Assembly (NCBI GenBank): GCA_003647765.1
Contig: QMNM01000001.1
Coordinates: 1-60,244, forward strand
Length of the DNA: 60,244 bases
Source: Candidatus Cloacimonadota bacterium
Lineage (GTDB): Bacteria > Cloacimonadota > Cloacimonadia > JGIOTU-2 > B8-G9
Reading direction: 5' to 3'
Shown: piece after piece, positions 1-35,966 of the stretch
Position numbering within the stretch: the first letter of the stretch is position 1
Layout: every line of letters begins with the position of its first letter
Translations under genes and position numbers: made by a program
The notes under the pieces: generated by a model
The model's input: the letters and a program-made list of their open reading frames with translations, nothing else
Databases searched by the model: none
Told to the model about the DNA's origin: nothing

Positions 1-123
1 AGAGAAAAGAGAAGAAGATATATTGAAGTGGCTGGATGATAACACTGAATCCTTACCTGAAGATTCTTTTCATCCTGAACTTATACCTGATTATACTCCG
101 ATTCCTTCCAAGCCTGTTTTGAA
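1..123. repeat. Terminal direct repeat copy A, identical to 60122-60244. Indicates a circular or circularly permuted genome of 60,121 bp.
   Basis: The window start agagaaaagagaagaagatatattgaagtgg...aagcctgttttgaa recurs exactly at the window end. Confidence 0.95.
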
Positions 124-3100
124 ACGGAAGCCCGAAAGGGTCTCTATGTTTTCTTTTGGTGTAGATTCAGATTTATCTCTGAAGAAGAAGATAGAATCAG
201 CGTATTCTATTTTTCAGAATGATTGGAGAGAGTTTTTACAGGCAAGGAAGGAGAGGCTTTCTCTGGCATGGAAGGCTGTATCAAAAGGCATAATTTCTCC
301 TGAAGAAGTAGATAAATTTGATTTTGTAGTTTCTGCTCTTGAGTGGGTAAAAGGAACTGATTTTAAGCATTTAATTAAGCGTGGGTTAGTAAATGAAAAG
401 GAAGCAAGGGTAAGGATTAAATTTTTTGAGACTTATGCCCAGAGAGTATGGAATGCTATTGGTGAAAGGCTTACAGGTTTAGATAATGTTTTAAAGAGCT
501 GGGCAAGGGGTGAGTTAAATTCAATAGATCCCAAAGATACTATTCATATAAGAGGATTGATTGAAGATGCTTTATCTGATTATCCTGCTTATACTCTCCA
601 GCAGTTAATAGAATTGCGTCGTGCTCATCGTATAGAGATTATTAGAAGGCTCTCAAAGAGTTATGCTTATACTTTACTGGACAGGTTTATTGAGAAAGGC
701 AGGAAGATAGATAAGAGTAGTTTAGATGCGATTTATAAGCAGTTAAGGAAATATGTAATCGGGTCTTATGTTTTAGCGATAGAAGGGAATGAGCGGAGTC
801 CTTTATTGAAAGAGTTAATGGGAGCTGGGTTATCAAAGCAACAAGCTATTCAACTTGTAAAGAATTCTTCTGCCAGAGCGACCCTGTTTTATCTTGATTA
901 TTTCTGGAGCAATTATGTTAAGGAATCAATGGGATTTTACAGGCTGGATACTCCTTTAGGCTGGGCTGGTGGTTTATTTAAATGGACCTGGGATTTAATC
1001 AAACTTGATTTCAATGCTCTACCTGCCAAATCAAAGAGATTACTGGTTGGCGAACTAGAAGATAACATTCTTCCTACAATAGATAAATTTATAGAGTTTG
1101 GTGATAAGTTATTAAGCATAAGGAAGACTCTGGAGCTTCCAGAGTATAAGCATATTTCAGCTATTAGGGCTTTAATGAAGAAGTTGCGGGATACTATTGA
1201 TGCTTATTTAAATAAGTCTTTGGATGTGAAGAAAGCCCAGAGAGAACTGGAGCATATCTGGAATGTTATTGTAGATAAATATGCAGTAGGGAATCACAGG
1301 GTTTTAGCCAAACTGGTTGCTAGAGAATTATTCCTTACTAATGCAAGGATTGGTTTACATAGGAAAGATGTTTCTGATTTTGAGAGATATAAATATCAAT
1401 CTGATGGTTTCCTGCGATTCTTGAAGCGGTATAATGATGCTTATAGTGCTTTATTGTATCTGGCAAAGAATGGAGAAGGTGCGACAAAGATTGTTGCAGA
1501 GCATTTATTGAAACTTCCTTATACCAGTATAGTTCTTCCACATGTTCCTATTAGGTTTGTAGAGAATTTATTTGGTGGAAAGACGACTGGTTTATATCGT
1601 CCCTATGAAGGTAACATGTTTGGAGAGATTATTGTTGATCCGAATGCTCTGCCCGATATTTTTGAAGCTACCATTTTTCATGAAATTTTACATGCATTGA
1701 CATTACATACACTTCATTTTTCCAAGAAAAGAGAAGAATATAGGGAAAGAATTAATAGTATTATAAACGATATTCGTCCATTGATTTCGGAGGAAGAATA
1801 CAAGTTAGGAAAATGGATAGTAGAAAATGAAGCAAGGCTTACCAAGCATGAATTGAAGGAAAAGATTGATAAGACTATTGCGAAAGATAGTCTTTTACAG
1901 GAGCATGTAGCTAGGTATGGAAAGCAGTCGTGGTTATCTTTTCTTGTTTCTCTACATGATCCTGATGAGTTTATTGTAACAGCTATAACTGAACCTGCGG
2001 GCAAGTTGTTCCTTATTGAGCATGATAAAAAATCCATCTGGAGAAAGATTCTTGATTTCATCAGGAACTTGTTAGGATTTCCAGTTGAAAAGAGAGAATT
2101 GTTTATCAGGACAGTTGACACTTTGATGGATATTGTTGCGGAATCTCATCCTATTTATGTTGCAGCTTTCAGGAAATACTTTAAGTTGCCTATAAATAAA
2201 ACTTTATATCAATTAGCTATGGCTTCTGCTGAAGAACTTTCTGATTTGGCTAACAGGATACAGAAAGAACATGAGTTAACAAGGCAAAGAATTAATCTTT
2301 CTGATTTTGAAGATAAGGTAAAAGATTTTGTTGAGCATATAAGGACATACAAAGCTCCTCCGCAAATGAAGGATATTAATATAATCAGGGAAAAATTTGG
2401 ATTACCTTTCTGGACAGCACTTCAAAATGAGTCTTTTAAGCCTTTATTTGATCATGTTACAAAGACAATGGAGAATAAGAATTTCACTTTACATGCTATT
2501 CTTCAGAAAGGAGAGACATATTTTAATGGGCTTGATGAAAAAAGAAGAAAGTATGTGGATTCTGCTATAAAGATAAGCGATGCTTTACAGGTCAGATTTA
2601 CGGAGGAGCATTTAAGGAATTTTCCAAGAGTTATTTCTAACATGAAGATTGCGTTCAATTTGATGTATCAGCTTTTGAAGCAGGAAGAAAGGTCTGGGTT
2701 AAATAGAAAGCAGAGAGCAGAGAGAAGGCAGGTTGTCCTGCAACGATTAAATGAAGCCACAAAGTTAGATTTACCAAAAGAATACTCTCAACCGCAGTAT
2801 GTTATCAGGTTTAAGCATTTCTTTGATTATGCAAGATTGCCAATAGACAAGTTATCCGATGAAGAAATAAAAGCATATAATAATTATGCAGAAGTAACTC
2901 AAGAGACTTTGAATCATCTAGGCGATACTTTCTTATCTCTGGTTTGTAAGCTGGTAATAAAGAACTATTTACAGAAGTTAAAGATAGATGTTCCTTCTAC
3001 TGTTCAGACTCAATGGATAAATACTTTAGTGGAGTTTGGTAAGGATATAGAGCAGGCTAGAGAGCGGGTTGCCCGAATGAATCCAGAAGCTAGAGAGATT

Positions 3101-5302
3101 TGGGAATCATTACTCAATGATTTGGAGGCTCATTCTCTCTATCAGAAATACAAAGAGATTCAGGATTTGATTAAAGATACCAAATTCTATTCTCCTCGTA
3201 TGAGAGATCCTGATGCTTCTGATATGATTGTAGTTGTAGAGAGAGAAAAATTCTTGGAAGAATACAGGAAGGCTTATAGAGAGACAGGTAATAGAGCGAA
3301 GGCTTTACAGCAAGCGTATTATGCGACTGCGAATGCCAATGGTGTCTATTTAAGAGAGCATGTTAGAAGAATAGATCCTGATTATAAGAGAAAGTTAGAG
3401 CATATTCAGTCTGTATTTAAAGATAGCAGGTTTCTTGTGCAGAGATTACCTAATTACAAGTTAGCGGAATCTGTCTGGGGCAATGTAAGTGAAGGAGATC
3501 TAGGAGCATTTCTCTCTGCTGTTGCAGAAAAAGTAAGGAAAGAAAATGTTGATTCTGAAACTTTAATGGGATTCTTGGAGAAGGTTGCAGATACAATTCA
3601 GACTGAATTGTTAGCTAAAAGTAGAGCAAAACAGAGATTTATTAAGAGAAATCCTTATCTGATTTTAGGATATACTCTGGATAATGTAAGGGAAGAATTA
3701 TTCAATTATGTAAACAATGCTTCTAATTATGCTGCCCGAATGGTAGCATTGGTAGAAGGATTACCTTTATTGAATCAAATAGATCCTTATCAGCAGAGAA
3801 GGTTGAGAGATTATGCTCATAAATGGTTCTTTGATCAATTGAAGCCACAGAGCCAGTTTGATCGTATTGTAGGAAAAGTAAAATCCTTGATGTTTATCTG
3901 GTATTTGGGCGGAGTGATTCGTCCTGCTTTAATTCAATTTACACAAATGTTTATTTCTACCATTCCAATGACAAGTATTGTTTATGATATTCCAATAACC
4001 AGAAGTATCTCTGTTTTTATGAAGGCTTATAGAGATGTATTGGATCACAGGAATTTAGATGAAAATAAGTATTTGACTGCGGACGAAAAAGAGTTCCTGC
4101 GGATTACATATACAAGTGGAATAACCACAGCTCAATTTATCAATCAGATGAGAGATGAAGTTGCGGGCAGAGGAAAAGTTCTCTCTACTCTGGCTACTTG
4201 GTTGACTACTCCTTTTGCATATATGGAAGAAAATAACAGGCTGGCAACAGCTTTAGGAATTTACAGGATTTTGAAAGAGAAAGGAATAGTCAGGCATGCA
4301 AAGGATAAGAAAGCTATGGAAGAAGCTACAACAATTGTTAATATGTCTCATTATTTAATGGGTAAACTCAATCTTCCTATTATAGCAACAGGTGGAGATG
4401 TGGCTTCTGGTTTAATGCGTCTAGCTCTTACTTTCCGTTCATTTACATTAAACTTATTAGAATCTTATATTTACATGCTCCGACATCTGCCTAAAGGACA
4501 GAGAGTTTGGGGTCTCAATAAAGAAGGATTGAGATTTGTTGGATATAGTTTTGCTGCCTTTACCTTATTCGGTGGAATTCTAGCAATACCTTTCCTTGAT
4601 GACTGGCTACAATTATTAGAAAGATTGACAGGAATTCCTATAAGAAAAAGGTTAGTTACTGTATTTGGAAATCCAGATTCTCCGCTATCTGTTGCTTTAG
4701 AAAGAGGATTACCTGCTGCCCTGATAGGTATGGATTTAAGCGGTTCATTGAAGATAGAATTCCCAAGACGACCAGAAGATATTTTGAATACTATTTTTGG
4801 AGTATATGGTGGACTTTCAAAGAGTTTTGCGGACGCAATGGTTGCTTTAGATGGTTATGATAGTTTGAACATCTTGTATAGGATTATGCCACAAGTGTTT
4901 GCCAATCCGATCAGGGCTTATGAAGCATATAAAGGAATAAAGAATCAATACAATAAAGTAATTCTGGACGAAGAAGGGCGACCATTGAGACTTACAGAAG
5001 GAGAAGCTGTCCTACTTGCACTTGGAATTAGACCAACAAGGTTGGGCAGAACTTATCTCTATAAGAGCACAAGTAGGAACATAGAAAAATACTTTGATAG
5101 TAAGCGGAAGGCTATATACAATGCTTATAGAAGTGCAAAGACTGCATCAGAGAGATGGAAAGTTTACAGGATGATTTATGAATATAACATGGAAGCTGCC
5201 AAATATGTATCTATTCCAAAGATTACTTTACAATCCCTGAAGGCAGCTTCCAAACCTGTTGAGAGCAAGCTAACACAAGAATTGAAACTTAAGGGTTATT
5301 AA
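1..5302 (+). CDS. Giant virion/ejection, polyvalent-like protein, C-terminal part. It is the continuation of 57084..60244 across the circular junction.
   Basis: The frame is open from base 2. Positions 23 and 60144 are equivalent and in frame with the ATG at 57084. An HExxH motif (HEILH) lies at 1679-1693. Several hydrophobic TM-like segments occur near the C-terminus (SLMFIWYLGGVIRPALIQF, FVGYSFAAFTLFGGILAIPFL). It is the last gene of the structural operon. Confidence 0.8.
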   Translation, partial: EKREEDILKWLDDNTESLPEDSFHPELIPDYTPIPSKPVLKRKPERVSMFSFGVDSDLSLKKKIESAYSIFQNDWREFLQARKERLSLAWKAVSKGIISPEEVDKFDFVVSALEWVKGTDFKHLIKRGLVNEKEARVRIKFFETYAQRVWNAIGERLTGLDNVLKSWARGELNSIDPKDTIHIRGLIEDALSDYPAYTLQQLIELRRAHRIEIIRRLSKSYAYTLLDRFIEKGRKIDKSSLDAIYKQLRKYVIGSYVLAIEGNERSPLLKELMGAGLSKQQAIQLVKNSSARATLFYLDYFWSNYVKESMGFYRLDTPLGWAGGLFKWTWDLIKLDFNALPAKSKRLLVGELEDNILPTIDKFIEFGDKLLSIRKTLELPEYKHISAIRALMKKLRDTIDAYLNKSLDVKKAQRELEHIWNVIVDKYAVGNHRVLAKLVARELFLTNARIGLHRKDVSDFERYKYQSDGFLRFLKRYNDAYSALLYLAKNGEGATKIVAEHLLKLPYTSIVLPHVPIRFVENLFGGKTTGLYRPYEGNMFGEIIVDPNALPDIFEATIFHEILHALTLHTLHFSKKREEYRERINSIINDIRPLISEEEYKLGKWIVENEARLTKHELKEKIDKTIAKDSLLQEHVARYGKQSWLSFLVSLHDPDEFIVTAITEPAGKLFLIEHDKKSIWRKILDFIRNLLGFPVEKRELFIRTVDTLMDIVAESHPIYVAAFRKYFKLPINKTLYQLAMASAEELSDLANRIQKEHELTRQRINLSDFEDKVKDFVEHIRTYKAPPQMKDINIIREKFGLPFWTALQNESFKPLFDHVTKTMENKNFTLHAILQKGETYFNGLDEKRRKYVDSAIKISDALQVRFTEEHLRNFPRVISNMKIAFNLMYQLLKQEERSGLNRKQRAERRQVVLQRLNEATKLDLPKEYSQPQYVIRFKHFFDYARLPIDKLSDEEIKAYNNYAEVTQETLNHLGDTFLSLVCKLVIKNYLQKLKIDVPSTVQTQWINTLVEFGKDIEQARERVARMNPEAREIWESLLNDLEAHSLYQKYKEIQDLIKDTKFYSPRMRDPDASDMIVVVEREKFLEEYRKAYRETGNRAKALQQAYYATANANGVYLREHVRRIDPDYKRKLEHIQSVFKDSRFLVQRLPNYKLAESVWGNVSEGDLGAFLSAVAEKVRKENVDSETLMGFLEKVADTIQTELLAKSRAKQRFIKRNPYLILGYTLDNVREELFNYVNNASNYAARMVALVEGLPLLNQIDPYQQRRLRDYAHKWFFDQLKPQSQFDRIVGKVKSLMFIWYLGGVIRPALIQFTQMFISTIPMTSIVYDIPITRSISVFMKAYRDVLDHRNLDENKYLTADEKEFLRITYTSGITTAQFINQMRDEVAGRGKVLSTLATWLTTPFAYMEENNRLATALGIYRILKEKGIVRHAKDKKAMEEATTIVNMSHYLMGKLNLPIIATGGDVASGLMRLALTFRSFTLNLLESYIYMLRHLPKGQRVWGLNKEGLRFVGYSFAAFTLFGGILAIPFLDDWLQLLERLTGIPIRKRLVTVFGNPDSPLSVALERGLPAALIGMDLSGSLKIEFPRRPEDILNTIFGVYGGLSKSFADAMVALDGYDSLNILYRIMPQVFANPIRAYEAYKGIKNQYNKVILDEEGRPLRLTEGEAVLLALGIRPTRLGRTYLYKSTSRNIEKYFDSKRKAIYNAYRSAKTASERWKVYRMIYEYNMEAAKYVSIPKITLQSLKAASKPVESKLTQELKLKGY

Positions 5303-25840: not shown

Positions 25841-25845
25841 ATCAT

Positions 25846-25859
25846 TGAAAACATTTTCA
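25846..25859. promoter_or_regulatory. Palindrome variant (CA centre), intergenic.
   Basis: It follows the stop of 25475..25840 and lies directly before the terminator. Confidence 0.9.
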
Positions 25860-25861
25860 AC

Positions 25862-25890
25862 GGGCGGGCTTTTTGCCCGCCCTTTTTTTT
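25862..25890 (+). terminator. Intrinsic terminator.
   Basis: Stem GGGCGGGC, loop tttt, stem GCCCGCCC, followed by T8. Confidence 0.85.
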
Positions 25891-25923
25891 GCTCTCACTC
25901 TATAGACCTACGACCTAGCACAG

Positions 25924-26170
25924 CCTATATAGACTAATACTCCATTATAAATCTCTTAAAGAGATTTATAATGGGTATATGTCTATAAGGTCGTCAGCCT
26001 GTATAGACTTATATCCCATATAAAATATCTTAAAGATATTTTATATGGGTATTAGTCTATCAGGTCGGATATATACAGCTAGCACTATAGACGAGCACTC
26101 CACCCTTATATGTCTATATGCTATTATTAATTCTTTAAAGAATTAATAATAGCTATAAGACATATTAGGG
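25924..26170. repeat. Three tandem extended hairpins (25924-25990, 25998-26064, 26104-26170).
   Basis: Perfect inner palindromes of 33, 35 and 34 nt lie at 25942-25974, 26015-26049 and 26120-26153. They share the centre TCTT(T)AAAGA but have different arms. Their bases carry TATAGAC/GTCTATA. Confidence 0.9.
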
Positions 26171-26174
26171 CGGG

Positions 26175-26244
26175 CTGGAGTGAATGTCCAGGTTGACAGG
26201 TTTGATATACTGGAAGCAAAAAAACAAAACAAAGGGGGTCGCTT
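26175..26244 (+). repeat. Conserved cassette leader, copy 3.
   Basis: ctggagtgaatgtccaggttgacaggtttgatatactggaagcaaaaaaacaaaacaaaggggg. Confidence 0.8.
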
Positions 26245-26526
26245 ATGGAACTCATTATTAAAAGCATTGAAAAAATGTTCTTAAAGAGCGGGGAAAAATC
26301 TAGTAATGTGGACAAAGGAAAATTGATTGTAGATAGGGACAAATTGATTTATAAAAACGGTAAAGAGATTGAAGTAGAGCTGGAGCGGGTAGAAAAAGAA
26401 AAAAGTTATTCGTTATTATACGCAAGACTTGAATTAGAGGGCGGGATTGTTGCTCAATTAAATGTGTATGAATTGAAAAGAAAAGAAAAGAAAAATCAAC
26501 GAAAAAAATCCAGTAGCTTGATTTAA
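26245..26526 (+). CDS. Hypothetical protein.
   Basis: 93-codon ORF after AAAGGGGG. A terminator follows it. Confidence 0.5.
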   Translation: MELIIKSIEKMFLKSGEKSSNVDKGKLIVDRDKLIYKNGKEIEVELERVEKEKSYSLLYARLELEGGIVAQLNVYELKRKEKKNQRKKSSSLI

Positions 26527-26533
26527 AGTTGCA

Positions 26534-26565
26534 AGGGGCGGACAAAATGTCCGCTCCTTTTTTTT
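26534..26565 (+). terminator. Intrinsic terminator.
   Basis: Stem AGGGGCGGAC, loop aaaat, stem GTCCGCTCCT, followed by T8. Confidence 0.8.
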
Positions 26566-26639
26566 GCCCAAATAACCCCACCCCTATCGGACACAGGGGG
26601 GTTTATATAGGGGACGGGGCGGGGCTTTTTGTGAACCTC

Positions 26640-26935
26640 TCACAAAAATCCCGAATTTCAGAAAATCCCAAATTCTAGAAAATCCTAAACTTTTAAAAAT
26701 TCTAAATTTTAACTTTCTCACAAAAATCTTAAATTTCAGATGAACTTCTCACAAAAATCCTAAATTTCAGAAAATCTTAAATTTCACAAAAATCCTAAAT
26801 TTTGTAAAAATCTTAAATCTTGAATTTTGTAAAAATCCTGAATTTTAGAAAACCTTAAAATTGAAAAATCCCGAATTTCAGAAAATCTTGAATTTTGTAA
26901 AATTCTGAATTTAGGAAATCCTGAATTCTTCTATA
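26640..26935. repeat. About 15 contiguous degenerate 17-18-bp units with consensus AAAATCYYRAATTTYAG.
   Basis: Examples are aaaatcccgaatttcag, aaaatcccaaattctag, aaaatcctaaatttcag, aaaatcttaaatttcac and aaaatcctgaattttag. CTCACAAAAAT is interspersed three times. Confidence 0.85.
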
Positions 26936-26980
26936 AGGAATTTTAAGAGTTTTTATATAGGGAGAGTTTTTGGGTAGGGA

Positions 26981-27000
26981 AGCCCGCAGGTGGGCGGGCT
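26981..27000. other. GC-rich hairpin immediately before the twin palindrome copies.
   Basis: Stem AGCCCGC, loop aggtgg, stem GCGGGCT. GGGCGGGCTGGAGTGAA (26992-27008) is identical to 26168-26184. Confidence 0.6.
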
Positions 27001-27004
27001 GGAG

Positions 27005-27018
27005 TGAAAACGTTTTCA
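27005..27018. promoter_or_regulatory. Palindrome, perfect copy, first of a twin pair.
   Basis: Its start is 29 bp from the start of its twin (15-bp gap). It lies at the convergent junction. Confidence 0.95.
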
Positions 27019-27033
27019 ATCCGTCCCTGCCAG

Positions 27034-27047
27034 TGAAAACGTTTTCA
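27034..27047. promoter_or_regulatory. Palindrome, perfect copy, second of the twin pair.
   Basis: It ends 3 nt before the stop of the 27050 gene. Confidence 0.95.
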
Positions 27048-27049
27048 AT

Positions 27050-27845: not shown

Positions 27846-28334
27846 TTAAATCCCAGTCTGCCCAATCCCTCCTCTATTCTCATTTAACAACCTTTCAACT
27901 TCAATAAACTCAATCTTCTCCATATTCTTTATTATTCGGAATTGACAGAGTCGGGCATATAAAGGAACAAAAGTCCCTCTGGTCGCATAAGCAAGAAAAT
28001 GCCAAATATCATCATCTCCACAATAAGAATTATCAATAACCGCAGGAGGATTCGTCTGCTGTAAACCATATCTTCCAAATGTAGAAGACCTTGCCACAAT
28101 CCATGCTTCATGTCCTTGTGGTAATTCTATAGAAACTCCAAGCCCAAATTTTACATACTCTCCCCCACCAATAAACCAACCTTTCTGTTTCTCTCCATTA
28201 ATTTCCCATTCAACAGGTTTCCGTTCTTTCTCATCTATAATCAATTTTGTCGCATACAAATCAATCCAGTCTCCTTTCTCTATAACTTTCAATCTGGGCA
28301 TTGAAGGATCATGATATTTAACTTTTATCTTCAT
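27846..28334 (-). CDS. dut: dUTPase.
   Basis: KGDWIDLYA, IELPQGHEAWIVARSS, AVIDNSYCGDDD, LCQFRI. Confidence 0.8.
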   Translation of the reverse strand: MKIKVKYHDPSMPRLKVIEKGDWIDLYATKLIIDEKERKPVEWEINGEKQKGWFIGGGEYVKFGLGVSIELPQGHEAWIVARSSTFGRYGLQQTNPPAVIDNSYCGDDDIWHFLAYATRGTFVPLYARLCQFRIIKNMEKIEFIEVERLLNENRGGIGQTGI

Positions 28335-28693
28335 CGGATAGCCTCCTTTACAACCAGAGACTCTAAAATGTTCTCTACTATCAAATAAAGCCTGTAATTA
28401 TCTTTCAAAACCACATCGCTTACTTTCATTCCCATGATTTCTTCAATAGGGAATCCGACCATATCCATGATTCCATGTGCCGTGTCCACAATCACAGTAG
28501 AATTGATAAAAACCAGCTTATTTTTATTTTCTTCATATTCTCCATTCTTCGCATCAAGCAAAATCCTGATCGCATCGTCTATTCTTTCTTTATACGCTTC
28601 ACTTCTCCTGCTCAAACTCTCCTTCGCTACATTTAAATTTGCAGAAAGCATATTCTTCTTTTCCATATAGTCTAAACATTCCTTTACTGTCAT
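28331..28693 (-). CDS. Hypothetical protein.
   Basis: ORF in the operon with overlapping stop and start. Confidence 0.5.
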   Translation of the reverse strand: MTVKECLDYMEKKNMLSANLNVAKESLSRRSEAYKERIDDAIRILLDAKNGEYEENKNKLVFINSTVIVDTAHGIMDMVGFPIEEIMGMKVSDVVLKDNYRLYLIVENILESLVVKEAIR

Positions 28694-29118
28694 AATTCCC
28701 CCCGCAAAGTTTTGACTAATACTCTAGTTAAATTATTGATTCCGTAATAATATGCTCCGTTCCTATCCCGATACCATACAGTCCGCACAAGACTTTCTCT
28801 AATGTCAATATGCCACCCTGGATTGTTCCAGAATGGATAAAACCCAATTGCTCCTATTTTTCTAAATTGGGACAATAAACAAAATTGCTCTAAATAGGAA
28901 AATCTATCTGGACTCACTTTCCAATGAAAATCCACTGCCATTCCTTTATAATGGAGTGATTTAGGAGAGTGCCCGCTGTCGTCCCACGCAACATGGATTA
29001 TAATCGGAAACCCAGACGCTTCTCTTATTTCATCCATCAGAAATACAAGGGAAGGAATAACTTTGTCGGGATCTTTCCTGAATTCTTCTTTTTTAAAATG
29101 TTTTACTCTCTCCCACAT
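28690..29118 (-). CDS. Peptidase M15-type peptidoglycan hydrolase (endolysin candidate).
   Basis: HFKKEEF, SGHSPKSLHYKGMAVDFH and GWHIDIR form a His/Asp/His Zn-ligand pattern. The ATG at 29118 follows AAAGGAGG. Confidence 0.7.
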   Translation of the reverse strand: MWERVKHFKKEEFRKDPDKVIPSLVFLMDEIREASGFPIIIHVAWDDSGHSPKSLHYKGMAVDFHWKVSPDRFSYLEQFCLLSQFRKIGAIGFYPFWNNPGWHIDIRESLVRTVWYRDRNGAYYYGINNLTRVLVKTLRGEL

Positions 29119-29164
29119 AAAATCCTCCTTTAATTTAAAATGATGTTGTGCAAAGAAAAGCAAA

Positions 29165-29760
29165 ACTCAACAATGCCACAGCAAGGGATTGGTAAACTTG
29201 GCACTGCCGTTGCCGCTCCTTACGAAACAATGCCTATGCTACTCTTTACGAAACAACACCTATCCTTACGAAACAGCACCTATGCTGCTCCTTACTGAAC
29301 TATACCCTGGCGATTCCTTACAAAACAATGCCTCTGCGATTCCTTGCCATACTAAACCTACGCCGAACACAACGATACTGCACTTAACCCCTGCCTATAC
29401 AACGCTACGCATTGTAGCACACCGCCCTTGCTATGATATTCAGTGCTTTGCCAATGCAAAACTTCTTGAAGCATTGCTCCGCCTTTGCTAAACCTGACTC
29501 TGCTAATCTCTGCCTCTGCTATACCTAGCCACTCCTTACTACTCATCACCACTGCTGGACAACTCATTACTTTCCGTCGCTTCACCGTTGCGAAACTAGG
29601 TATTACTTCGCCATTGCAAATCAGCACTCTACTTGACCATGCCTTTCCATTGCGTCCCACAACCCAACCATACAGAGCAATACCATAGCTTAACGGCACA
29701 GCACTAAACCATCGCCCGACTGGGCAACGCCTCTGCTCTGCAAAAATATACTATACGATG
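29165..29760. other. Non-coding island of roughly 600 bp. The plus strand is G-poor and C-rich, with degenerate roughly 26-bp repeats. Candidate ncRNA or cis element.
   Basis: In 29221-29280 I count 19 C and 6 G. Repeats of CCTTACGAAACA.. occur at 29216-29345. The three overlapping ORFs here have no SD and an atypical amino-acid composition. Confidence 0.7.
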
Positions 29761-29766
29761 CCATTA

Positions 29767-30390
29767 CTACTTAACTCTTTCCCAAGTAAATCTTCCATAC
29801 CCACCATTTCTCCATTGCCCTAGTCCCTTCAGTTTTCCATAATCCAGCAATGTTTCTATTACTTTCCAATTCAATTCTTTATGTGGAAGAAGGGCTATTT
29901 CTATTTCAAATTCAACAGGATCAATAAAATCGGAACTGATTAATGAAACTCTAGGACCTTGTGGAGTGTTGGCACGCAGAGACCGCTCTAATCTTCCATC
30001 AGGCTTCTCTTTCAACCAGATATATCGTGGAAAAACAAACACATAATTGTCAATCTTGCTCCGCAAGTTCTTTATTTTCAGTATATCTTTCAACACATTC
30101 CCAGCTTCTTTCAGGAAACCTTTGATATGATAATCCATTAAATAAACTCCATCAGCGTCAGTGTAGAAACCAGTTTCTCCCTGCCCTTCAGGAGCTAATT
30201 TCTGTTCTATCTGCATCTGCATTTCTTGCTCATCTAACTGCTCTGGATCAGCATCCATTAAATCTTCTTCCTTTCCATAATACTTTGCCTGAACATATCT
30301 TGTGAAAACTTTTAAATCTTTAGGGATACTGCCCAGCAATTTCTCAATCAAAATGATTTTATACTTTCTCTTATCCATCTCTATACCCAT
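29767..30390 (-). CDS. RAMP/Cas6-like protein. Tentative.
   Basis: The C-terminal GLGQWRNGGYG (29794-29826) fits the Cas6 glycine-rich loop pattern GhGxxxxxGhG. HIKGFLKEAG resembles the RAMP ..KG.lR.. motif. The N-terminal strand is KYKIILIEKLLG. Confidence 0.35.
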   Translation of the reverse strand: MGIEMDKRKYKIILIEKLLGSIPKDLKVFTRYVQAKYYGKEEDLMDADPEQLDEQEMQMQIEQKLAPEGQGETGFYTDADGVYLMDYHIKGFLKEAGNVLKDILKIKNLRSKIDNYVFVFPRYIWLKEKPDGRLERSLRANTPQGPRVSLISSDFIDPVEFEIEIALLPHKELNWKVIETLLDYGKLKGLGQWRNGGYGRFTWERVK

Positions 30391-30401
30391 CACGCCCTCC
30401 T

Positions 30402-30857
30402 TTAAAAATATTTTTCTATCAAATCCAAATCTTTTAAAGCCTCATCCATATAACTTTCAGCATTGATTTCTGGATCAAAGTAGAGATAAATATTGAACAG
30501 ATGCTCAAGAATTTTGCCGAAATAGGCAAACTCAAACCTGTTCCTGACCGACGACCAGATGTCATCTCCTAATGCCAGCAGAAAATTCAAATAATACCTG
30601 ACATCAAACTCTTTCTTACTTTTCTTCACATCTTCAAAAAATTCTTCTGCCTTCTTGCTAGTAATCGCAAGCTCTTTTCCTAAATCTCCCTTGAATGTAG
30701 CATAGAGATACTCCCGAAGTCTATCTCTCCTTCTCTTGATTGCATTTAACCATGCCCAAACTTTAATAGGGAGATGCTTCTGCCTGAACATTTCAATGAA
30801 GGCTTCATCAGATAGGCAGGCAAGATAGAAGAATTTACGCTGATCTTTGCGTGCCAT
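30402..30857 (-). CDS. Hypothetical helical protein.
   Basis: The ATG at 30857 follows GGAAGGAG and a variant palindrome copy. Confidence 0.55.
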   Translation of the reverse strand: MARKDQRKFFYLACLSDEAFIEMFRQKHLPIKVWAWLNAIKRRRDRLREYLYATFKGDLGKELAITSKKAEEFFEDVKKSKKEFDVRYYLNFLLALGDDIWSSVRNRFEFAYFGKILEHLFNIYLYFDPEINAESYMDEALKDLDLIEKYF

Positions 30858-31207: not shown

Positions 31208-31414
31208 TTATTTTCTCTTACTCAATTTTCTCAAAGTAAGAGCAAGTCTTGCTTTTCTCGCAACCCTTCCACTTCCTTTTGCTTTCTTTCTCAACCATGA
31301 AACTTTGATTGTTCCATCAGGATTCAATGCTCCTTCTCTCTTTGCAATTGCCCGCAGAGACCCTGGTCTCTTAATTGCCTTCTGAATCCATTTGTTATCT
31401 TTCTTCTTTGCCAT
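31208..31414 (-). CDS. Small basic protein, first gene of the leftward block.
   Basis: The ATG at 31414 follows AAGGAG. N-terminus MAKKKDNKWIQKAIKRPGSLR.... Confidence 0.5.
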   Translation of the reverse strand: MAKKKDNKWIQKAIKRPGSLRAIAKREGALNPDGTIKVSWLRKKAKGSGRVARKARLALTLRKLSKRK

Positions 31415-31832
31415 TTTTCTCTCCTTTTTCTGATCTTCCGAAATTATTTCCAATTTTCCAAAAATATCTCCGATTTTTAAAAATTATTCCCAATCCTATC
31501 AAAATATTCCCAAATCTCCAAAATTCTAAAATTTTCTCCTTTTTTCTGATTTATTTACCAAAATCCCTGATTATTTTCAATCTCCAAGTATTGAGCAGGG
31601 AATCAAAAATTTTGACATTAACAAAAAGTTTACATAATTCTCCGTCGGCGTGCTAGGTCGTATTAGTGTATTGATAAAGACGGGAAAATTTGTTTTTGTT
31701 TTCAAAAAGTTGTAGAGAATCCCTACTAGAAAATTCCAATTAGAGTCAAAAAATTAATTTTTGCAAAAAGTTTTTCAATTTTTCTCAAAATTTCTCAAAA
31801 TTTCTTCACAAAGCTCAATGTCAGTTCAGATA

Positions 31833-31855
31833 GCCTTAAGCCTTAAGCCTTAAGC
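31833..31855. repeat. Tandem heptamer (GCCTTAA) x3.
   Basis: gccttaagccttaagccttaagc. Each junction creates CTTAAG. Confidence 0.9.
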
Positions 31856-31899
31856 AGACCAAAATAAACCACGAGTTCTGGAAAGAAAAGAAAAGTGCA

Positions 31900-31978
31900 T
31901 CTCTAAATAAAATATTAAAATATTTTATTCAGAGACTTATAGTAAAATATAGACATTTACATGTCTTATATTTTACTA
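31900..31978. repeat. Two adjacent AT-rich hairpins. The second carries TATAGAC/GTCTTATA.
   Basis: 31900-31935 reads tctctaaataaaatatt..aatattttattcagaga. 31940-31978 reads tagtaaaatatagacat-ttac-atgtcttatattttacta. Confidence 0.75.
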
Positions 31979-32259
31979 AAGGCAAAAGAAAAGAAAGATA
32001 AACAACTAAATAAAACTAAAAATAAAAAAATATATAAATAGCCCTAGCACTATACCCTTAAGCCATTTTTTATTTTACTTTCAATTTTTGTAGGGAGACA
32101 CTTGATTTCTCCTATAAACCATTGAAAAATAAAGTTTCGCTGGAAATTTTTGATTTTGTCAGTTTAAATTTGAAATGTTGGTAAGGCAGAGAAAGCAACG
32201 CTTCCTGTTGTTTGATTTTGTCAAAAATGAAATTTCTCTATTTTTTATTGAAGTTGTTA

Positions 32260-32288
32260 TTGACAAAATGATTTTTGTGTATTATTGT
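32260..32288 (+). promoter_or_regulatory. Sigma70-like promoter of the structural (rightward) operon.
   Basis: TTGACA, 17 nt, TATTGT, about 20 nt before the ATG at 32309. Confidence 0.6.
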
Positions 32289-33083: not shown

Positions 33084-35966
33084 ATGGAGAGTTTCTCTAT
33101 AAACGAAGTTCCTTATAACTTCAATGATGTTCCTACCATTAAGAAGTTTTATCTTTCAAACAAGAAAATCAGGGCTATTGTAGGACCGTATGGTTGTTTT
33201 CCAGAATATTGTGAGTATTTGAGTTTTTCTGATGGAGAATATCGCTGGAAGAAGATCAAGGATTATCAAGAAGGGGAAAAGATTGCGGTTTATGATTTTG
33301 AGACAAAGGAGCTTCGGTTTGAGAAGCCTTTGGCTTATGTAAAGCTCCCTATGAATGATCTCTGGATTCATATTCGTGGCAGTAGATTTTTTGAAGCGAT
33401 AGTTTCTCCTGAACATGTCTTTCCCTATATTGTGTCTCATTCTGGGAAATATGGAGTGAAGTCCATTACTGAATTGATTAAGTGGGGGATTACGAATGCA
33501 AGGGTGGTTAATACTTTTCGCATTTGTGGGGAGACTTTTGGTTTAGATGAGTGGTTGGTCAGGTTTATAGCGATGCTTTCTGCTGATGGGCATAAGTGTT
33601 CTGATACCAGATGGCAGGTTTCTTTGAGGAGACGGAGGAAGATTGAGAGGTTGGAGTTTTTGTGCAGGAAGGTAGGAGTTCCTTATTCTCGTAAAGTTTA
33701 TGATTCCCGTCCTACTGAAAATGTTTTCATTTTAGATTTATCTTCTCATCCGCAACTTGCGGGGTTGACCAAGAAGTTTCCGAATTATTTTTACAATTTA
33801 TCTTCTGATTTACTTGATGTTTTAGTGGATGAGATTTTGTATTGGGACGGCTCATTTTACAATGGGAATGATAGGAGATATTTTACGACCATTAAGGAGA
33901 ATGCTGAATTTATCCAGTATGCTTCTCATGCAACGGGCAGGCGTGCTTCCGTTCTTAAAGTTTCGTATCCGAAAGATAATTGGAAGGATTGTTATATTGT
34001 TCATATTTCTGGGAAGGGGGTAAAGAAGACCTGTTTTATTGACAAGGATGCTCCTAAAGATAGGTCAATAAGGTATATTTCTCCGAAGGAAGGTGAATTT
34101 AAGTATTGTTTTACCACTTCAACAGGGTTTTTTCTTGTTAGGTTTAATGGAGCTGTTTATATTTCTGGGAATTCGGGCAAGTCATCTGGTTGTGTTATTA
34201 CTATGCTTCGTCATACTTGTGAGCAGATGCCAGATCCGCATGGGATAAGGAGAACTAGATGGGTTGTTGTTAGAAATTGTTATTCTGATGATACAGAGAT
34301 TCTGACAGAGAAGCGGGGCTGGGTATTGTTTAAAGATTTACTTCCTGATGATAAGGTGGCTCAATATAATCCTGCGACTGATAGATTGGAATTTGTAAAG
34401 CCGACTTATTATTATCGCTCCTATTATAGTGGAGATATGATTTGGGTTCATTCCAGTAGAAAGGAGCTTGATCTTCTTGTTACTCCAGATCATAGGCTTT
34501 ATGTTGCTGATTATAAAGATGGAAAGTGTGGGTCTTTTGATTTTAAAATGGCAAAGTTTTGTTATGGGAAGAAAGTTGCTTTTATTGGTTCTGATGGAGA
34601 GTTGATAGTTGCAGATGAATCTGATTGGGATATGGTAGCTTATAGTGGAATGGTTTATTGTGTAGAAGTTCCTACTCATATCATTTTGGTTTGCAGGAAT
34701 GGAAAACCAGTTCTTTGTTCCCAGACTTACAGACAGCTGAAGGACACAACCAAAAAGACAATAGACTACTGGTTGCGGTTTGCAGAATGGAGAGAATCAG
34801 AGTTTAAGTATATTCTCAAGTTCAGGTTGCAGGATAATACGATAGTGGAGTCTGAATGGCTTTTGAGAGCGTTGGACAGACCAGAGCATATTGCGAATTT
34901 ACTTTCTTTAGAGATAACGGGTGCGTGGTTGAATGAAGCAAGGGAGATTCCGAAGGAGATTTTTGATGCGATAGAAGGAAGATTGCGTTATCCTCCTACA
35001 ATAAGAGACAGAGATGGGAAAGTTTTATATGGTCCTACTTGGTTAGGGATTTTGTTAGACACGAACCCTCCTGATGAAGATCATTGGTTTTACAAGTATT
35101 TTGAAGAAAATAGACCAGAGAAAGCGGAGATTTTTCATCAGCCATCTGGTTTATCTCCTGAAGCGGAGAATATCAGGAATCTTCCTCCGAATTATTATCA
35201 GGATCTTTGTGTTGGCAAGGATCAGGATTGGATAGATGTTTATGTGCATGGGAAATATGGTTCTGTAAGGTCGGGCAAGCCTGTATTTTCTCTCTACAAT
35301 GATGAGATTCATTGTGCGAAAGAGCCGTTAGCTCCATTGATGGGATTTCCGTTGATAATTGGAATGGATTTTGGTTTAACTCCTGCTGCTGTGATTTTAC
35401 AGAAGCCTCCACGCAGGTTATTTGTTCTTGATGAAGTTGTAGCTGAAGAACCGATTGATGTAATTGAGTTTATTCGTTATATGCTTCTTCCTTTTATGGA
35501 GGAGAAGGAATTTTATCGGGGCAAGAATTTCATAATTGTGGGAGATCCAGCAGGTAAGGCAAGGTCGCAGGTTGATGGAAGGAGTGTATTTGAAGCGATA
35601 AATCAGTTAGGGTTGCGTGCTTATCCTGCCTATACGAACTCTTTACAAATCAGGTTAAATGCGGTAAATCAATATTTAACAAGATTGGATACTTTTGCTG
35701 GGGAGATGAAGCCAGCGTTTTTATTATCTCCTACTTGCAGGATGCTGAGGCAAGCCTTGAAAGGGAAGTATAGGATGAAAAGGGTAGCGACTGGGACAGA
35801 TATGTATTCTGATGTTCCTGTGAAGGACAAGTGGTCGCATGTTGCGGATGCGTTGCAATATGGAGCTTTAGGGTATAGGAAGCCGACTTTTAATGAAGAA
35901 TTTGATGAGTTTTCTAACATAGAAGGGCGGGGAGGACCAACGCATTTAGGAACAGGTATTTATTAA
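33084..35966 (+). CDS. terL: Terminase large subunit interrupted by two inteins. The spliced product would be about 485 aa.
   Basis: The split Walker A is IVGPYG / SGKSSG. VVVRN / TYRQLKDTT is also split. Walker B-like WLNEARE. Nuclease motifs IIGMDFGL, GDPAG and HVADALQY. Confidence 0.9.
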   Translation: MESFSINEVPYNFNDVPTIKKFYLSNKKIRAIVGPYGCFPEYCEYLSFSDGEYRWKKIKDYQEGEKIAVYDFETKELRFEKPLAYVKLPMNDLWIHIRGSRFFEAIVSPEHVFPYIVSHSGKYGVKSITELIKWGITNARVVNTFRICGETFGLDEWLVRFIAMLSADGHKCSDTRWQVSLRRRRKIERLEFLCRKVGVPYSRKVYDSRPTENVFILDLSSHPQLAGLTKKFPNYFYNLSSDLLDVLVDEILYWDGSFYNGNDRRYFTTIKENAEFIQYASHATGRRASVLKVSYPKDNWKDCYIVHISGKGVKKTCFIDKDAPKDRSIRYISPKEGEFKYCFTTSTGFFLVRFNGAVYISGNSGKSSGCVITMLRHTCEQMPDPHGIRRTRWVVVRNCYSDDTEILTEKRGWVLFKDLLPDDKVAQYNPATDRLEFVKPTYYYRSYYSGDMIWVHSSRKELDLLVTPDHRLYVADYKDGKCGSFDFKMAKFCYGKKVAFIGSDGELIVADESDWDMVAYSGMVYCVEVPTHIILVCRNGKPVLCSQTYRQLKDTTKKTIDYWLRFAEWRESEFKYILKFRLQDNTIVESEWLLRALDRPEHIANLLSLEITGAWLNEAREIPKEIFDAIEGRLRYPPTIRDRDGKVLYGPTWLGILLDTNPPDEDHWFYKYFEENRPEKAEIFHQPSGLSPEAENIRNLPPNYYQDLCVGKDQDWIDVYVHGKYGSVRSGKPVFSLYNDEIHCAKEPLAPLMGFPLIIGMDFGLTPAAVILQKPPRRLFVLDEVVAEEPIDVIEFIRYMLLPFMEEKEFYRGKNFIIVGDPAGKARSQVDGRSVFEAINQLGLRAYPAYTNSLQIRLNAVNQYLTRLDTFAGEMKPAFLLSPTCRMLRQALKGKYRMKRVATGTDMYSDVPVKDKWSHVADALQYGALGYRKPTFNEEFDEFSNIEGRGGPTHLGTGIY
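33195..34172 (+). mobile_element. Intein 1 (326 aa) with a LAGLIDADG homing-endonuclease domain, inserted in the terL P-loop.
   Basis: It starts with Cys38 (CFPEY...). Block B is VSPEH. The LAGLIDADG-like segments are FIAMLSADGH and VDEILYWDGSF. It ends ...VYISGN, followed by Ser. Confidence 0.85.
33716..33729. repeat. Palindrome variant (TG centre), inside the intein 1 endonuclease domain.
   Basis: Read as E-N-V-F. Confidence 0.9.
34278..34724 (+). mobile_element. Intein 2, a mini-intein of 149 aa, in terL.
   Basis: It starts CYSDDTEILTEKRGWVLFKDL. Block B is LVTPDHRLYV. Block F/G is VYCVEVPTHIILVCRNGKPVLCSQ, followed by Thr. Confidence 0.8.

What the first reader, a model, noticed from the sequence alone, without database searches (positions are those of the whole stretch)
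29767..30390. Orphan RAMP/Cas6-like protein encoded next to the repeat island, with no CRISPR array or other cas genes
The 208-aa product ends with GLGQWRNGGYG (29794-29826). This fits the Cas6 glycine-rich loop consensus GhGxxxxxGhG exactly, including the required basic residue.

It also has an N-terminal beta-strand-like KYKIILIEKLLG and an HIKGFLKEAG segment resembling the RAMP '..KG.lR.a' motif. Its size matches a two-RRM RAMP.

It sits immediately upstream, in the same transcription direction, of the 600-bp repeat-bearing non-coding island.

A phage-borne solitary Cas6-like RNase paired with its own repetitive RNA would be a new arrangement. It could be RNA processing of a phage ncRNA, or interference with host crRNA maturation.

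This rests on short motifs only. The repeat units do not form a conserved hairpin, which weakens a classical Cas6-substrate model.
Basis: inference. Interest (0 to 1): 0.72.

Follow-up and report, generated by a model that had tools for sequence, protein, structure and literature searches.

The report
Phage VIPR system: RAMP plus pentamer-repeat RNA
The gene encodes a small Cas7-like (not Cas6-like) RAMP protein of the recently described phage "VIPR" family, and the 600-base island beside it is its guide-RNA array of about 110 five-base YNNNG repeats, so this is a real RNA-guided system of a kind first reported in 2026 preprints.

Summary
ORF 29767-30390 (-) encodes a 207-aa protein ending in the glycine-rich loop GLGQWRNGGYG (29794-29826). 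It lies directly upstream, on the same strand, of a 648-nt non-coding island in a tailed-phage genome with no CRISPR array.

The protein is a RAMP, but a single-RRM, thumb-bearing Cas7/Csm3-like one, not a two-RRM Cas6-like RNase. Its family aligns over full length with that of the characterised SUSP1 Vipr protein (hhalign 95.4 %, E 1.9e-8).

The island is a strand-specific array of about 110 YNNNG pentamers (G lag-5 autocorrelation 0.43, z = 10.7, unique in the window). One YNNNGG hexamer occurs every 4-6 units. The same arrays abut homologues in 127 of 160 surveyed loci. The repeat G is about 7-fold more conserved than the NNN positions.

[quoted passage not shown] There, Vipr protomers coat a pentanucleotide-repeat RNA and use the variable bases to bind and silence competing phage DNA.

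Relative to the characterised type II system, this clade has lost the first G of GGY, carries Q instead of D in the G-loop, has no 3' tails, and has one long phase-slipping array. Targets were not found. Verdict: a new member of a just-described kind.

The parts
29767..30390 (-). vipr gene: 207-aa single-RRM, thumb-bearing RAMP (Vipr family). An alternative GTG start at 30393 gives 208 aa.
   Evidence: ORF and ribosome-binding site. 835 homologues. AF2 pLDDT 87.6. Foldseek to Cas7/Csm3. hhalign to the SUSP1 Vipr family 95.4 %, E 1.9e-8.
29794..29826 (-). Codons for the G-loop GLGQWRNGGYG. Q193-W194-R195 align with SUSP1 D177-W178-R179, the residues that contact the GGY bases.
   Evidence: Invariant columns. 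hhalign alignment. Residue roles from 10.64898/2026.04.26.720927.
29197..29766 (-). vrRNA array: about 110 YNNNG pentamers, punctuated by about 20 YNNNGG (mostly CANNGG) hexamers. The resulting modules are 26, 31 or 36 nt. No tails, ribozymes or hairpins.
   Evidence: G lag-5 autocorrelation 0.43, z = 10.7, unique in the window. Segmentation: 113 of 122 units end in G and position 1 is Y in 82 %. No Rfam match and no terminator.
29119..29196 (-). 3' flank of the array, GC...CATTG TTGAG TTTTG CTTTT CTTTG, conserved in close relatives. It then runs into the ribosome-binding site of the downstream endolysin gene. Role unknown: end of the array transcript or 5'-UTR.
   Evidence: Conserved in L008 and L009. 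Sequence.
30402..30857 (-). Candidate accessory (vap-like) gene, 151 aa, predicted all-helical, 11 nt upstream of vipr (9 nt from the GTG start at 30393). Membership in the system is uncertain.
   Evidence: 47 % identical homologue placed after the second array in L002, L011 and L012. 92 % identical in L008 and L009. Absent from the other loci. No family or database homologues. The AF2 model is unusable, pLDDT 47.

Best explanation
This is a VIPR (Viral Interference Programmable Repeat) locus carried by a tailed phage.

**Shown here.**
- The 207-aa protein is a Vipr-family RAMP with a single RRM, a G-loop and a beta-hairpin thumb.
- The adjacent same-strand island is an array of pentanucleotide repeats. 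One G and the following pyrimidine are fixed. Three positions are free to vary.

**Inferred by homology to the characterised SUSP1 system.**
- The island is transcribed, probably by read-through from the vipr operon.
- One Vipr protomer binds each pentamer. The conserved G and Y are flipped into pockets formed by the G-loop (Q193-W194-R195), the thumb and helix alpha-1.
- The filament displays the variable bases, which pair non-contiguously with double-stranded DNA of a competing mobile element and silence its transcription.

**Clade-specific inference.**
- The first G of the canonical GGY is not required. This coincides with the G-loop Asp that reads it in SUSP1 being Gln here.
- The extra G every 4-6 units shifts the register by +1. 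It divides the roughly 570-nt array into about 20 modules of 26-36 nt. These may be individual short guides (a 'staggered' array) or turns of one long filament.
- Arrays diversify by module duplication or loss and by point mutation at the N positions, not by spacer acquisition.
For: **Protein.**
- AF2 model pLDDT 87.6 with topology beta1-alpha1-beta2-[hairpin 133-157]-beta3-alpha2-G-loop-beta4.
- The top 50 PDB Foldseek hits shown are all CRISPR effector-complex chains, most of Cas7/Csm3 size.
- The profile hits type VII Cas7 (E 0.005), Csm4, and the PDB chain 'SUSP1 Vipr protein'.
- Profile-profile alignment to the SUSP1 Vipr family: 95.4 %, E 1.9e-8, 173 columns. GLGQWR is superposed on GVGDWR.
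- The top BFVD hit is a phage 'Cas system-associated RAMP superfamily protein' (E 5e-16, TM 0.71).

**RNA array.**
- Period-5 G signal, z = 10.7, on the minus strand only and unique in the 60 kb.
- 113 of 122 units end in G, with Y at position 1 in 82 %.
- The same architecture lies next to homologues at 58-74 % identity. It is also present in 65 of 80 IMG/VR loci and 62 of 80 genome loci, always on the vipr strand.
- Substitution rate between related arrays is 0.017 at the G against 0.10-0.13 at the other four positions.
- Hexamers far outnumber tetramers (66:0 in L064) and recur mostly every 4-6 units (431 of 591 spacings).
- Close relatives (at least 90 % identical protein) carry arrays of 649, 433 and 353 nt that share some modules.

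**Context.**
- The window is a phage genome: large terminase subunit (TerL), a portal-like head-tail adaptor/connector protein, DNA polymerase and a weak endolysin match for ORF 28690-29163.
- There is no CRISPR array.

**Mechanism precedent.** 10.64898/2026.04.26.720920 and .720927. The first explicitly lists YNNNG repeat variants and staggered arrays.
Against: - No expression, binding or targeting data exist for this clade.
- No target was identified. Six skip rules gave no excess over shuffled-unit controls in a 0.9-Mb local set. A concatenated-NNN query found nothing in 50,697 phage genomes. The single 18-base xNN hit in IMG/VR is at chance level and its skip bases fall on codon position 1.
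- The repeat lacks the first G. In SUSP1, substitutions in the GGY motif (the tested set included GGY>AGY) abolished silencing, so the decoding rule may differ.
- Modules of 4-6 units would give only 8-18 nt of specificity.
- No conserved vap gene is present across the clade.
- About 20 % of homologous loci show no adjacent array at my threshold.
Confidence: 0.85

Rival explanations
1. Cas6-like RNase. The protein is an endoribonuclease that processes the island transcript or host pre-crRNA, possibly as an anti-CRISPR.
For: - It has a true RAMP G-loop.
- The long array must be processed somehow. No ribozyme or tail was found.
Against: - The top-ranked structural neighbours are Cas7/Csm3-type backbone subunits, and none of the 50 listed entries is a Cas6 structure.
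- The fold has a single RRM with a thumb.
- The repeats have no hairpin for a Cas6 to grip.
- No invariant His, Tyr, Lys or Asp catalytic constellation is evident beyond RNA-binding residues.
- The homologous SUSP1 Vipr forms filaments along the RNA rather than cutting it.
- Its own array co-occurs in 79 % of loci, which argues against host crRNA as the substrate.
Confidence: 0.05
2. A VIPR-like ribonucleoprotein with a different output. The same protein-RNA filament targets RNA, or uses a different code (three read bases per unit, a long multi-module guide), or serves the phage's own gene regulation or genome packaging rather than inter-phage silencing.
For: - The first G is lost and the G-loop carries Asp-to-Gln.
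- There is a continuous roughly 570-nt array with a +1 register slip every 4-6 units, unlike the discrete 12-16-unit SUSP1 vrRNAs with tails.
- The nearest CRISPR relatives (types III and VII) target RNA.
- The 1-nt-skip rule found no targets.
Against: - The published survey says that all seven VIPR types use the pentamer code or a related consensus, and it includes YNNNG and staggered arrays.
- The target searches here had low power: a small local database and an exact-match requirement.
Confidence: 0.08
3. The island is not an RNA gene. It would instead be a DNA element (iterons or origin, a binding array for a DNA-binding protein, or decayed coding sequence), and its adjacency to the RAMP gene would be incidental.
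For: - Public gene callers place a 113-aa ORF in it.
- No promoter of its own is evident.
Against: - The periodicity is 5, not 3, and is strand-specific.
- The array always lies on the vipr strand, whether upstream or downstream of the gene, in 127 of 160 loci across many phyla.
- Only the G (plus Y) is constrained while the sequence otherwise turns over.
- The experimentally verified SUSP1 arrays give the same signal.
Confidence: 0.02

Closest known systems
VIPR type II system of Escherichia phage SUSP1 (Vipr + vrRNA + Vap1; bioRxiv 10.64898/2026.04.26.720920 and 10.64898/2026.04.26.720927)
   Same: - A phage-borne RAMP of about 200 aa with a single RRM, G-loop and thumb.
- Full-length profile homology.
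- The G-loop core GxG-x-W-R.
- Adjacent same-strand tandem pentanucleotide repeats with an invariant G and Y and hypervariable N positions.
- No cas genes and no CRISPR array.
   Different: - The repeat is YNNNG, not YNNGG: the first G of GGY is not conserved (position-4 G about 0.21-0.25).
- G-loop Asp177 is replaced by an invariant Gln.
- There is one continuous roughly 570-nt array with a hexamer every 4-6 units. SUSP1 has discrete 12-16-unit vrRNAs, each with a hairpin or pseudoknot tail.
- There is no vap1 homologue.
- Direct BLASTP identity is only about 25 %.
Cas7 backbone subunits of type VII and type III CRISPR-Cas (type VII Cas7, e.g. 8z4l, 8yhd, 9j9e; Csm3, e.g. 6ifl, 6xn3)
   Same: - Best structural matches (Foldseek E 1e-6 to 1e-5, TM about 0.5).
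- Best sequence-profile hit (E 0.005 over the beta3-alpha2-G-loop-beta4 region).
- The same RRM plus thumb plus G-loop topology, and the same logic of one protomer per fixed RNA step.
   Different: - 6-nt crRNA periodicity against 5-nt here.
- They are part of multi-subunit effectors with Cas5, Cas10, Cas11 or Cas14 and a CRISPR array, none of which is present here.
- They target RNA.
- Only 10-16 % identity.
Cas6 endoribonucleases
   Same: RAMP superfamily with a glycine-rich loop near the C-terminus.
   Different: - Cas6 has two RRM/ferredoxin domains and binds and cuts repeat hairpins.
- This protein has one RRM and a thumb.
- No Cas6 structure appears among the top structural hits.
- The repeats here have no hairpin.

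Membership tests
VIPR system (Vipr + vrRNA) | Protein homologous to characterised Vipr proteins | tested here: met
   hhalign of the window family (A1) against the SUSP1 Vipr family (A2): probability 95.4 %, E 1.9e-8, 173 aligned columns. The A1 profile also reaches PDB chain 36pp_D 'SUSP1 Vipr protein', but only weakly (E 0.62).
VIPR system (Vipr + vrRNA) | RAMP hallmarks: single RRM core, glycine-rich loop, thumb; no second RRM | tested here: met
   AF2 model pLDDT 87.6. Secondary structure is beta1, alpha1, beta2, long beta-hairpin 133-157, beta3, alpha2, G-loop 186-200, beta4. Foldseek matches Cas7/Csm3.
VIPR system (Vipr + vrRNA) | Adjacent tandem pentanucleotide repeats with a conserved G(G)Y and hypervariable N positions (YNNGG, or the published variants NNNGG, YNNNG, NNNNG), at least 4 units | tested here: met
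   About 110 YNNNG units. G substitution rate 0.017 against 0.10-0.13 elsewhere. The strict YNNGG form is not met: only one 5-unit run. The variants are listed in the paper's methods.
VIPR system (Vipr + vrRNA) | Non-CRISPR context (no CRISPR array, no other cas genes), typically viral | tested here: met
   No CRISPR-like repeats in the 60 kb. The five neighbouring ORFs scanned have no cas-family hits, and neither protein scanned against PADLOC (the RAMP and the 151-aa ORF) has a hit. Phage hallmark genes are present.
VIPR system (Vipr + vrRNA) | Associated vap accessory gene (vap1-6) | tested here: inconclusive
   The 151-aa upstream ORF is linked only in the closest relatives. It shows no similarity to SUSP1 vap1. 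It has no family hits, and its model is unusable. The paper notes that stand-alone vipr genes exist.
VIPR system (Vipr + vrRNA) | vrRNA is expressed, co-purifies with Vipr, and guides dsDNA binding by the 1-nt-skip code | not testable with these tools
   In-silico target searches were uninformative.
VIPR type II (SUSP1/P. fulva clade) | GGYNN repeats in discrete vrRNAs of 9-16 units capped by a conserved structured 3' tail; vap1 | tested here: not met
   The window has single-G repeats, no tails and a continuous array. The SUSP1 control shows discrete GGYNN runs plus hairpin tails. There is no vap1 homologue.
Cas6 | Two RRM/ferredoxin-like domains; binds and cleaves CRISPR repeat RNA; usually beside a CRISPR array | tested here: not met
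   One RRM plus thumb. The top-ranked structural hits are Cas7/Csm3-type subunits and no Cas6 structure is listed. No CRISPR array. Cleavage activity is not testable here.
Cas7 (CRISPR class 1 backbone) | Encoded in a cas operon with Cas5 and large/small subunits, and assembles on crRNA from a CRISPR array | tested here: not met
   The fold criterion is met. There is no cas operon or CRISPR array in the window.

The most novel reading that the evidence does not exclude
This clade may implement a decoding geometry different from the published 1-nt-skip GGY/NN code. Its features are a single-G YNNNG repeat, an invariant G-loop Gln in place of Asp, and a strictly +1 register slip (one extra G) every 4-6 units.

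One possibility is that three bases are read per protomer. Another is that each 26-36-nt module corresponds to one helical turn or one mini-guide of a very long, multi-target filament. Arrays reach 1.7 kb (L064).

New guides would arise by module duplication and mutation. That would make it a second RNA-guided recognition code, not just another VIPR member.
Probability: 0.2. Interest if true: 0.75.

Novelty: new member of a known kind. Interest (0 to 1): 0.5.

Why it matters
VIPR systems were reported only in 2026 preprints. They are proposed as the viral ancestors of CRISPR RAMPs and as a minimal programmable DNA-binding platform of about 20 kDa. Only type II has been characterised biochemically and structurally.

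This locus belongs to a very large clade that has not been tested experimentally. The clade has 2385 clusters at 50 % identity. It spans phages and prophages of Bacillota, Thermodesulfobacteriota, Chloroflexota, Planctomycetota, Actinomycetota, Bacteroidota and others.

Three things make the clade a natural test of how flexible the repeat code is:
- The clade drops one of the two guanines of the GGY motif; in SUSP1, substitutions in that motif abolished silencing.
- The matching G-loop residue is changed (Asp to Gln).
- Guides are packed in long, phase-slipping arrays without tails or ribozymes.

The clade therefore offers a way to ask how guides are delimited and how they evolve.

For annotation, the public records call spurious ORFs inside these arrays and label the protein 'hypothetical'.

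Tried and rejected
1. **Curated family libraries.** Pfam, PHROGs, NCBIfam and PADLOC gave no hit for the window protein or, in NCBIfam and PADLOC, for SUSP1 Vipr. The family is absent from these libraries.
2. **Strict YNNGG scan.** Only one 5-unit run was found in the island. The strict motif is not the right model; a period-5 G analysis was needed.
3. **Rfam.** Neither gathering nor E-value mode showed a ribozyme or known RNA in the island. The one hit was a spurious mir-2068 match at 29099-29166.
4. **Promoter and terminator scan.** Nothing exceeded the shuffled background. No terminator lies between the gene and the array.
5. **Local target search.** All 81 arrays were tested against 0.9 Mb of window plus loci under six skip rules, with seed-and-extend and shuffled-unit controls. 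There was no excess.
6. **Concatenated-NNN pseudo-target.** blastn against INPHARED phages found no match.
7. **Pattern scan of IMG/VR.** The xNN pattern of the 9-unit module gave one distinct sequence (L090 and L091). It lies inside a 167-aa ORF, does not extend, and its skip bases fall on codon position 1. I judged it chance-level.
8. **The 151-aa neighbour as vap.** The homologue search returned only the protein itself. The single-sequence model had pLDDT 47 and was not searched.
9. **L005 versus L006 arrays.** They are identical, so they say nothing about which positions vary.
10. **Three 197-aa genes in tandem in L005.** They are not Vipr paralogues.

Full report
**1. The observation**

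Window 29767-30393 (-) is an open reading frame. The likely start is ATG at 30390, 8 nt after AGGAGG. That gives the 207-aa protein deposited as RLC49275.1, 'hypothetical protein DRH57_00200', from a 62-kb Candidatus Cloacimonadota MAG contig.

The C-terminus reads ...KGLGQWRNGGYGRFTWERVK.

The next real gene downstream on the same strand is a 142-aa protein with weak M15-peptidase/endolysin matches, starting at ATG 29118. The gene is therefore followed by a 648-nt non-coding island (29119-29766).

The window is a tailed-phage genome. It encodes a large terminase subunit, a head-tail adaptor/connector protein, DNA polymerase, helicase, dUTPase and a probable endolysin. It has no tRNA, no Rfam family at gathering score and no CRISPR-like array.

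**2. The protein**

No model in Pfam, PHROGs, NCBIfam or PADLOC matches it. Yet it belongs to a large family.
- 835 hits in the word-indexed search.
- 2385 clusters at 50 % identity with E <= 0.001, of which 757 have E <= 1e-30.

In a 33-sequence alignment the invariant residues cluster in two places. One is helix alpha-1: G92, F93 and K95 are invariant and K91 is nearly invariant (at least 90 %). The other is the C-terminal loop G186-x3-G190-x2-Q193-x-R195-x4-G200-x-F202.

A profile of that alignment was searched against PDB sequences. The hits were:
- type VII Cas7, E 0.005
- Csm4, E 0.03
- a chain named 'SUSP1 Vipr protein' (36pp_D), E 0.62

An AlphaFold2 model built from the alignment is confident (pLDDT 87.6, pTM 0.80). 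It shows one ferredoxin/RRM core with a long beta-hairpin (residues 133-157) inserted before beta-3. A poorly conserved helical insertion follows beta-1.

Foldseek against the PDB returns only CRISPR effector-complex chains among the 50 hits shown. The top-ranked ones are type VII Cas7 and type III Csm3 (E about 1e-6 to 1e-4, TM about 0.5), and no Cas6 structure is listed.

Against predicted viral structures, the best hit is a phage protein already labelled 'Cas system-associated RAMP superfamily protein' (E 5e-16, TM 0.71). Archaeal-virus proteins follow.

It is a single-RRM, thumb-bearing Cas7-like one, not a two-RRM Cas6.

**3. The literature link**

The PDB name led to two 2026 preprints.
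[quoted passage not shown] - Vipr is a solitary, mostly phage-encoded RAMP of about 20 kDa.
- It is flanked by non-coding regions that encode vrRNAs made of 9-16 YNNGG pentamers.
- One protomer binds each repeat. The GGY bases are flipped into pockets formed by the RRM sheet, thumb and G-loop (H17, R138, D177, W178, R179 in SUSP1).
- The NN dinucleotides pair with dsDNA while skipping every third target base. This silences competing phages or satellites.

The papers define seven types. They mention variant repeats (NNNGG, YNNNG, NNNNG), 'staggered' arrays, ribozyme-interspersed arrays, and six kinds of accessory vap genes.

**4. Homology to the characterised Vipr**

I fetched the SUSP1 genome and located the locus. 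vipr is KT454805 28474-29061 (-), and vap1 is 28031-28471 (-). Clear GGYNN runs with hairpin tails lie in both flanks.

Direct BLASTP between the SUSP1 and window proteins is weak (24.5 % over 163 aa, E 0.02 in a tiny database). An alignment of 27 SUSP1-clade proteins compared with the window family by hhalign gives 95.4 % probability, E 1.9e-8, over 173 columns end to end.

The G-loops superpose as GLGQ193-W194-R195-NGGYGRF on GVGD177-W178-R179-PR-FGRF.

**5. The island is a pentamer array**

On the minus strand, G shows autocorrelation of +0.43 at lag 5, +0.23 at lag 10 and +0.19 at lag 15.
- Against 5000 shuffles this is z = 10.7, and the largest shuffled value was 0.14.
- Among all 300-nt windows on both strands of the 60 kb, the island is the only region above 0.25.
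- It exceeds the verified SUSP1 flanks, which score 0.21-0.29.

A dynamic-programming segmentation into 5-nt units, with 4- and 6-nt units penalised, gives 122 units. Of these, 113 end in G. Position 1 is a pyrimidine in 82 % of units and G in only 2 %. Positions 2-4 are mixed and C-poor. The repeat is therefore YNNNG.

Twenty units are hexamers, nearly all CANNGG, and only one is a tetramer. The hexamers recur every 4-7 units. They divide the array into modules of mostly 26, 31 or 36 nt.

The strict YNNGG motif is essentially absent. There are no hairpin tails, ribozymes or terminators. The 113-aa ORF that gene callers place inside the island is almost certainly spurious. The sequence periodicity there is 5, not 3, and relatives have no such ORF.

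**6. Comparative evidence**

The same YNNNG-plus-hexamer arrays lie immediately downstream of homologues at 73 %, 61 % and 58 % identity. One of these is in a GC-rich genome.

| Survey | Loci | With adjacent same-strand period-5 G island |
|---|---|---|
| IMG/VR | 80 | 65 (40 downstream; 25 upstream only) |
| GTDB genomes | 80 | 62 |

Hardly any such islands occur elsewhere in the flanks. The genome loci span many bacterial phyla.

Across 31 arrays the architecture is constant.
- 76-99 % of units end in G.
- Hexamers (consensus YNNNGG) greatly outnumber tetramers.
- 431 of 591 hexamer spacings are 4-6 units.
- One array (L064) is 1675 nt with 321 units.

Between related arrays, the substitution rate at the repeat G is 0.017, against 0.10-0.13 at the other four positions. 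Both Gs of the hexamer are also conserved (0.03-0.04).

Three near-identical phages (at least 90 % identical protein) carry arrays of 649, 433 and 353 nt. They share some modules, with point differences. The 3' modules of the window array are obvious paralogues: CATAGG/CATTG-TTTCG-TAAGG occurs three times. Arrays therefore appear to evolve by module duplication or loss plus mutation. This is an inference.

**7. Mechanism**

Shown here:
- a Vipr-family RAMP
- a co-oriented array of pentamers with a selectively maintained G and Y and free N positions
- tight genomic coupling of the two across the family

Inferred from the SUSP1 work:
- transcription of the array, probably by read-through from the vipr operon, since no terminator intervenes
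- filament assembly with one protomer per pentamer
- display of the variable bases for non-contiguous pairing with dsDNA
- silencing of a competitor element

Clade-specific inference: in SUSP1 the first G of GGY is read by H17 and D177. Substitutions in the GGY motif, in a tested set that included GGY>AGY, abolished silencing. In the window clade that position is not conserved (G about 0.21-0.25), and the G-loop residue is Gln in 102 of 106 loci. The SUSP1 clade mostly has Asp. This is a comparison of only two clades, so it is suggestive and no more.

[quoted passage not shown] I could not see that figure, so this is unverified.

**8. What I could not establish**

Targets:
- Six skip rules gave no excess over shuffled controls in the local 0.9-Mb set.
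- A concatenated-NNN query found nothing in INPHARED.
- An 18-base xNN pattern found one chance-level sequence in IMG/VR.

Accessory gene: the 151-aa ORF just upstream (30402-30857) has a 47 % homologue in L002, L011 and L012. There it sits after a second array, downstream of vipr. It is absent from the rest of the clade. It has no database homologues, and its single-sequence model is unusable.

VIPR type: the type assignment of this clade, and whether RLC49275.1 is among the paper's 2664 proteins, could not be checked. The supplementary tables are not held.

**9. Verdict**

The RAMP call and the protein-RNA pairing are right. The Cas6/RNase reading is not.

The feature is a VIPR system, a kind published as preprints in 2026. 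It belongs to a large clade that has not been tested experimentally. The clade's repeat (YNNNG), G-loop (Gln) and array organisation (long, tail-less, hexamer-punctuated) differ from the characterised type II.

I rate it a new member of a known kind, with moderate interest (0.5). There is about a 20 % chance that the differences amount to a distinct recognition code.

Noticed in passing
window 26632-26919 (within the ORF-poor stretch about 25841-27049): An AT-rich cluster of direct repeats (units of about 17-31 nt, e.g. AAAATCCYAAATTTCAGAAAATC, at least 4-5 copies) lies in a 1.2-kb region without long ORFs. It could be an origin, iterons or a promoter cluster. It has no period-5 G signal.
   Followed up: no
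window 31436-31525 and 31454-32284: A period-20 tandem repeat (TTCCAAAATTATTTCCAATT, 4.5 copies) and several short A/T repeats lie in the roughly 800-nt AT-rich gap between the leftward vipr-containing operon and the rightward structural operon. This is probably a divergent promoter or regulatory region.
   Followed up: no
window 29358-29699 (-): A 113-aa ORF lying entirely inside the pentamer array is called as a gene in the public record of this contig (L007 4692-5033). In L005 a 172-aa gene call likewise overlaps the array. These look like annotation artefacts caused by the G-periodic, stop-poor repeat sequence.
   Followed up: partly
window 31208-31453 (-): An 81-aa basic protein two genes upstream of the vipr operon matches the Fusellovirus VP2 capsid/DNA-binding family (PF25632, E 1.9e-5, below cut-off) and PHROG 25798 (E 6e-11). 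That is an odd family to find in a tailed phage.
   Followed up: no
window 33084-35966 (+): A 960-aa ORF combines a PhoH-like ATPase N-terminal region (residues 24-367) with a terminase large-subunit region (543-937). Between them is a short ribonucleotide-reductase-like match (500-597). It may be a fusion or an intein-containing TerL.
   Followed up: no
window 23-5302 (+): A 1759-aa ORF has a C-terminal DarB-like antirestriction match (PHROG 10089, E 1.5e-18). This is another counter-defence candidate in the same phage.
   Followed up: no
L002 4650-5190 and 5870-6090 (also L011); L064 5551-7225; L029: Some relatives carry two or three separate arrays around vipr. In L002 the second array is followed by the homologue of the window's 151-aa ORF. 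L064 has a single 1675-nt array of 321 units with 100 % Y at position 1.
   Followed up: partly
L090 4683-4708 and L091 4891-4916 (IMG/VR UViGs 3300037104_000734 and 3300036885_000599): This is the only IMG/VR sequence matching all 18 specified bases of the xNN pattern from the window's 9-unit module. It lies inside a 167-aa ORF. Four of 8 skip bases also match repeat position 4. The match stops at the module borders. It is statistically at chance level but was not excluded as a real target.
   Followed up: partly
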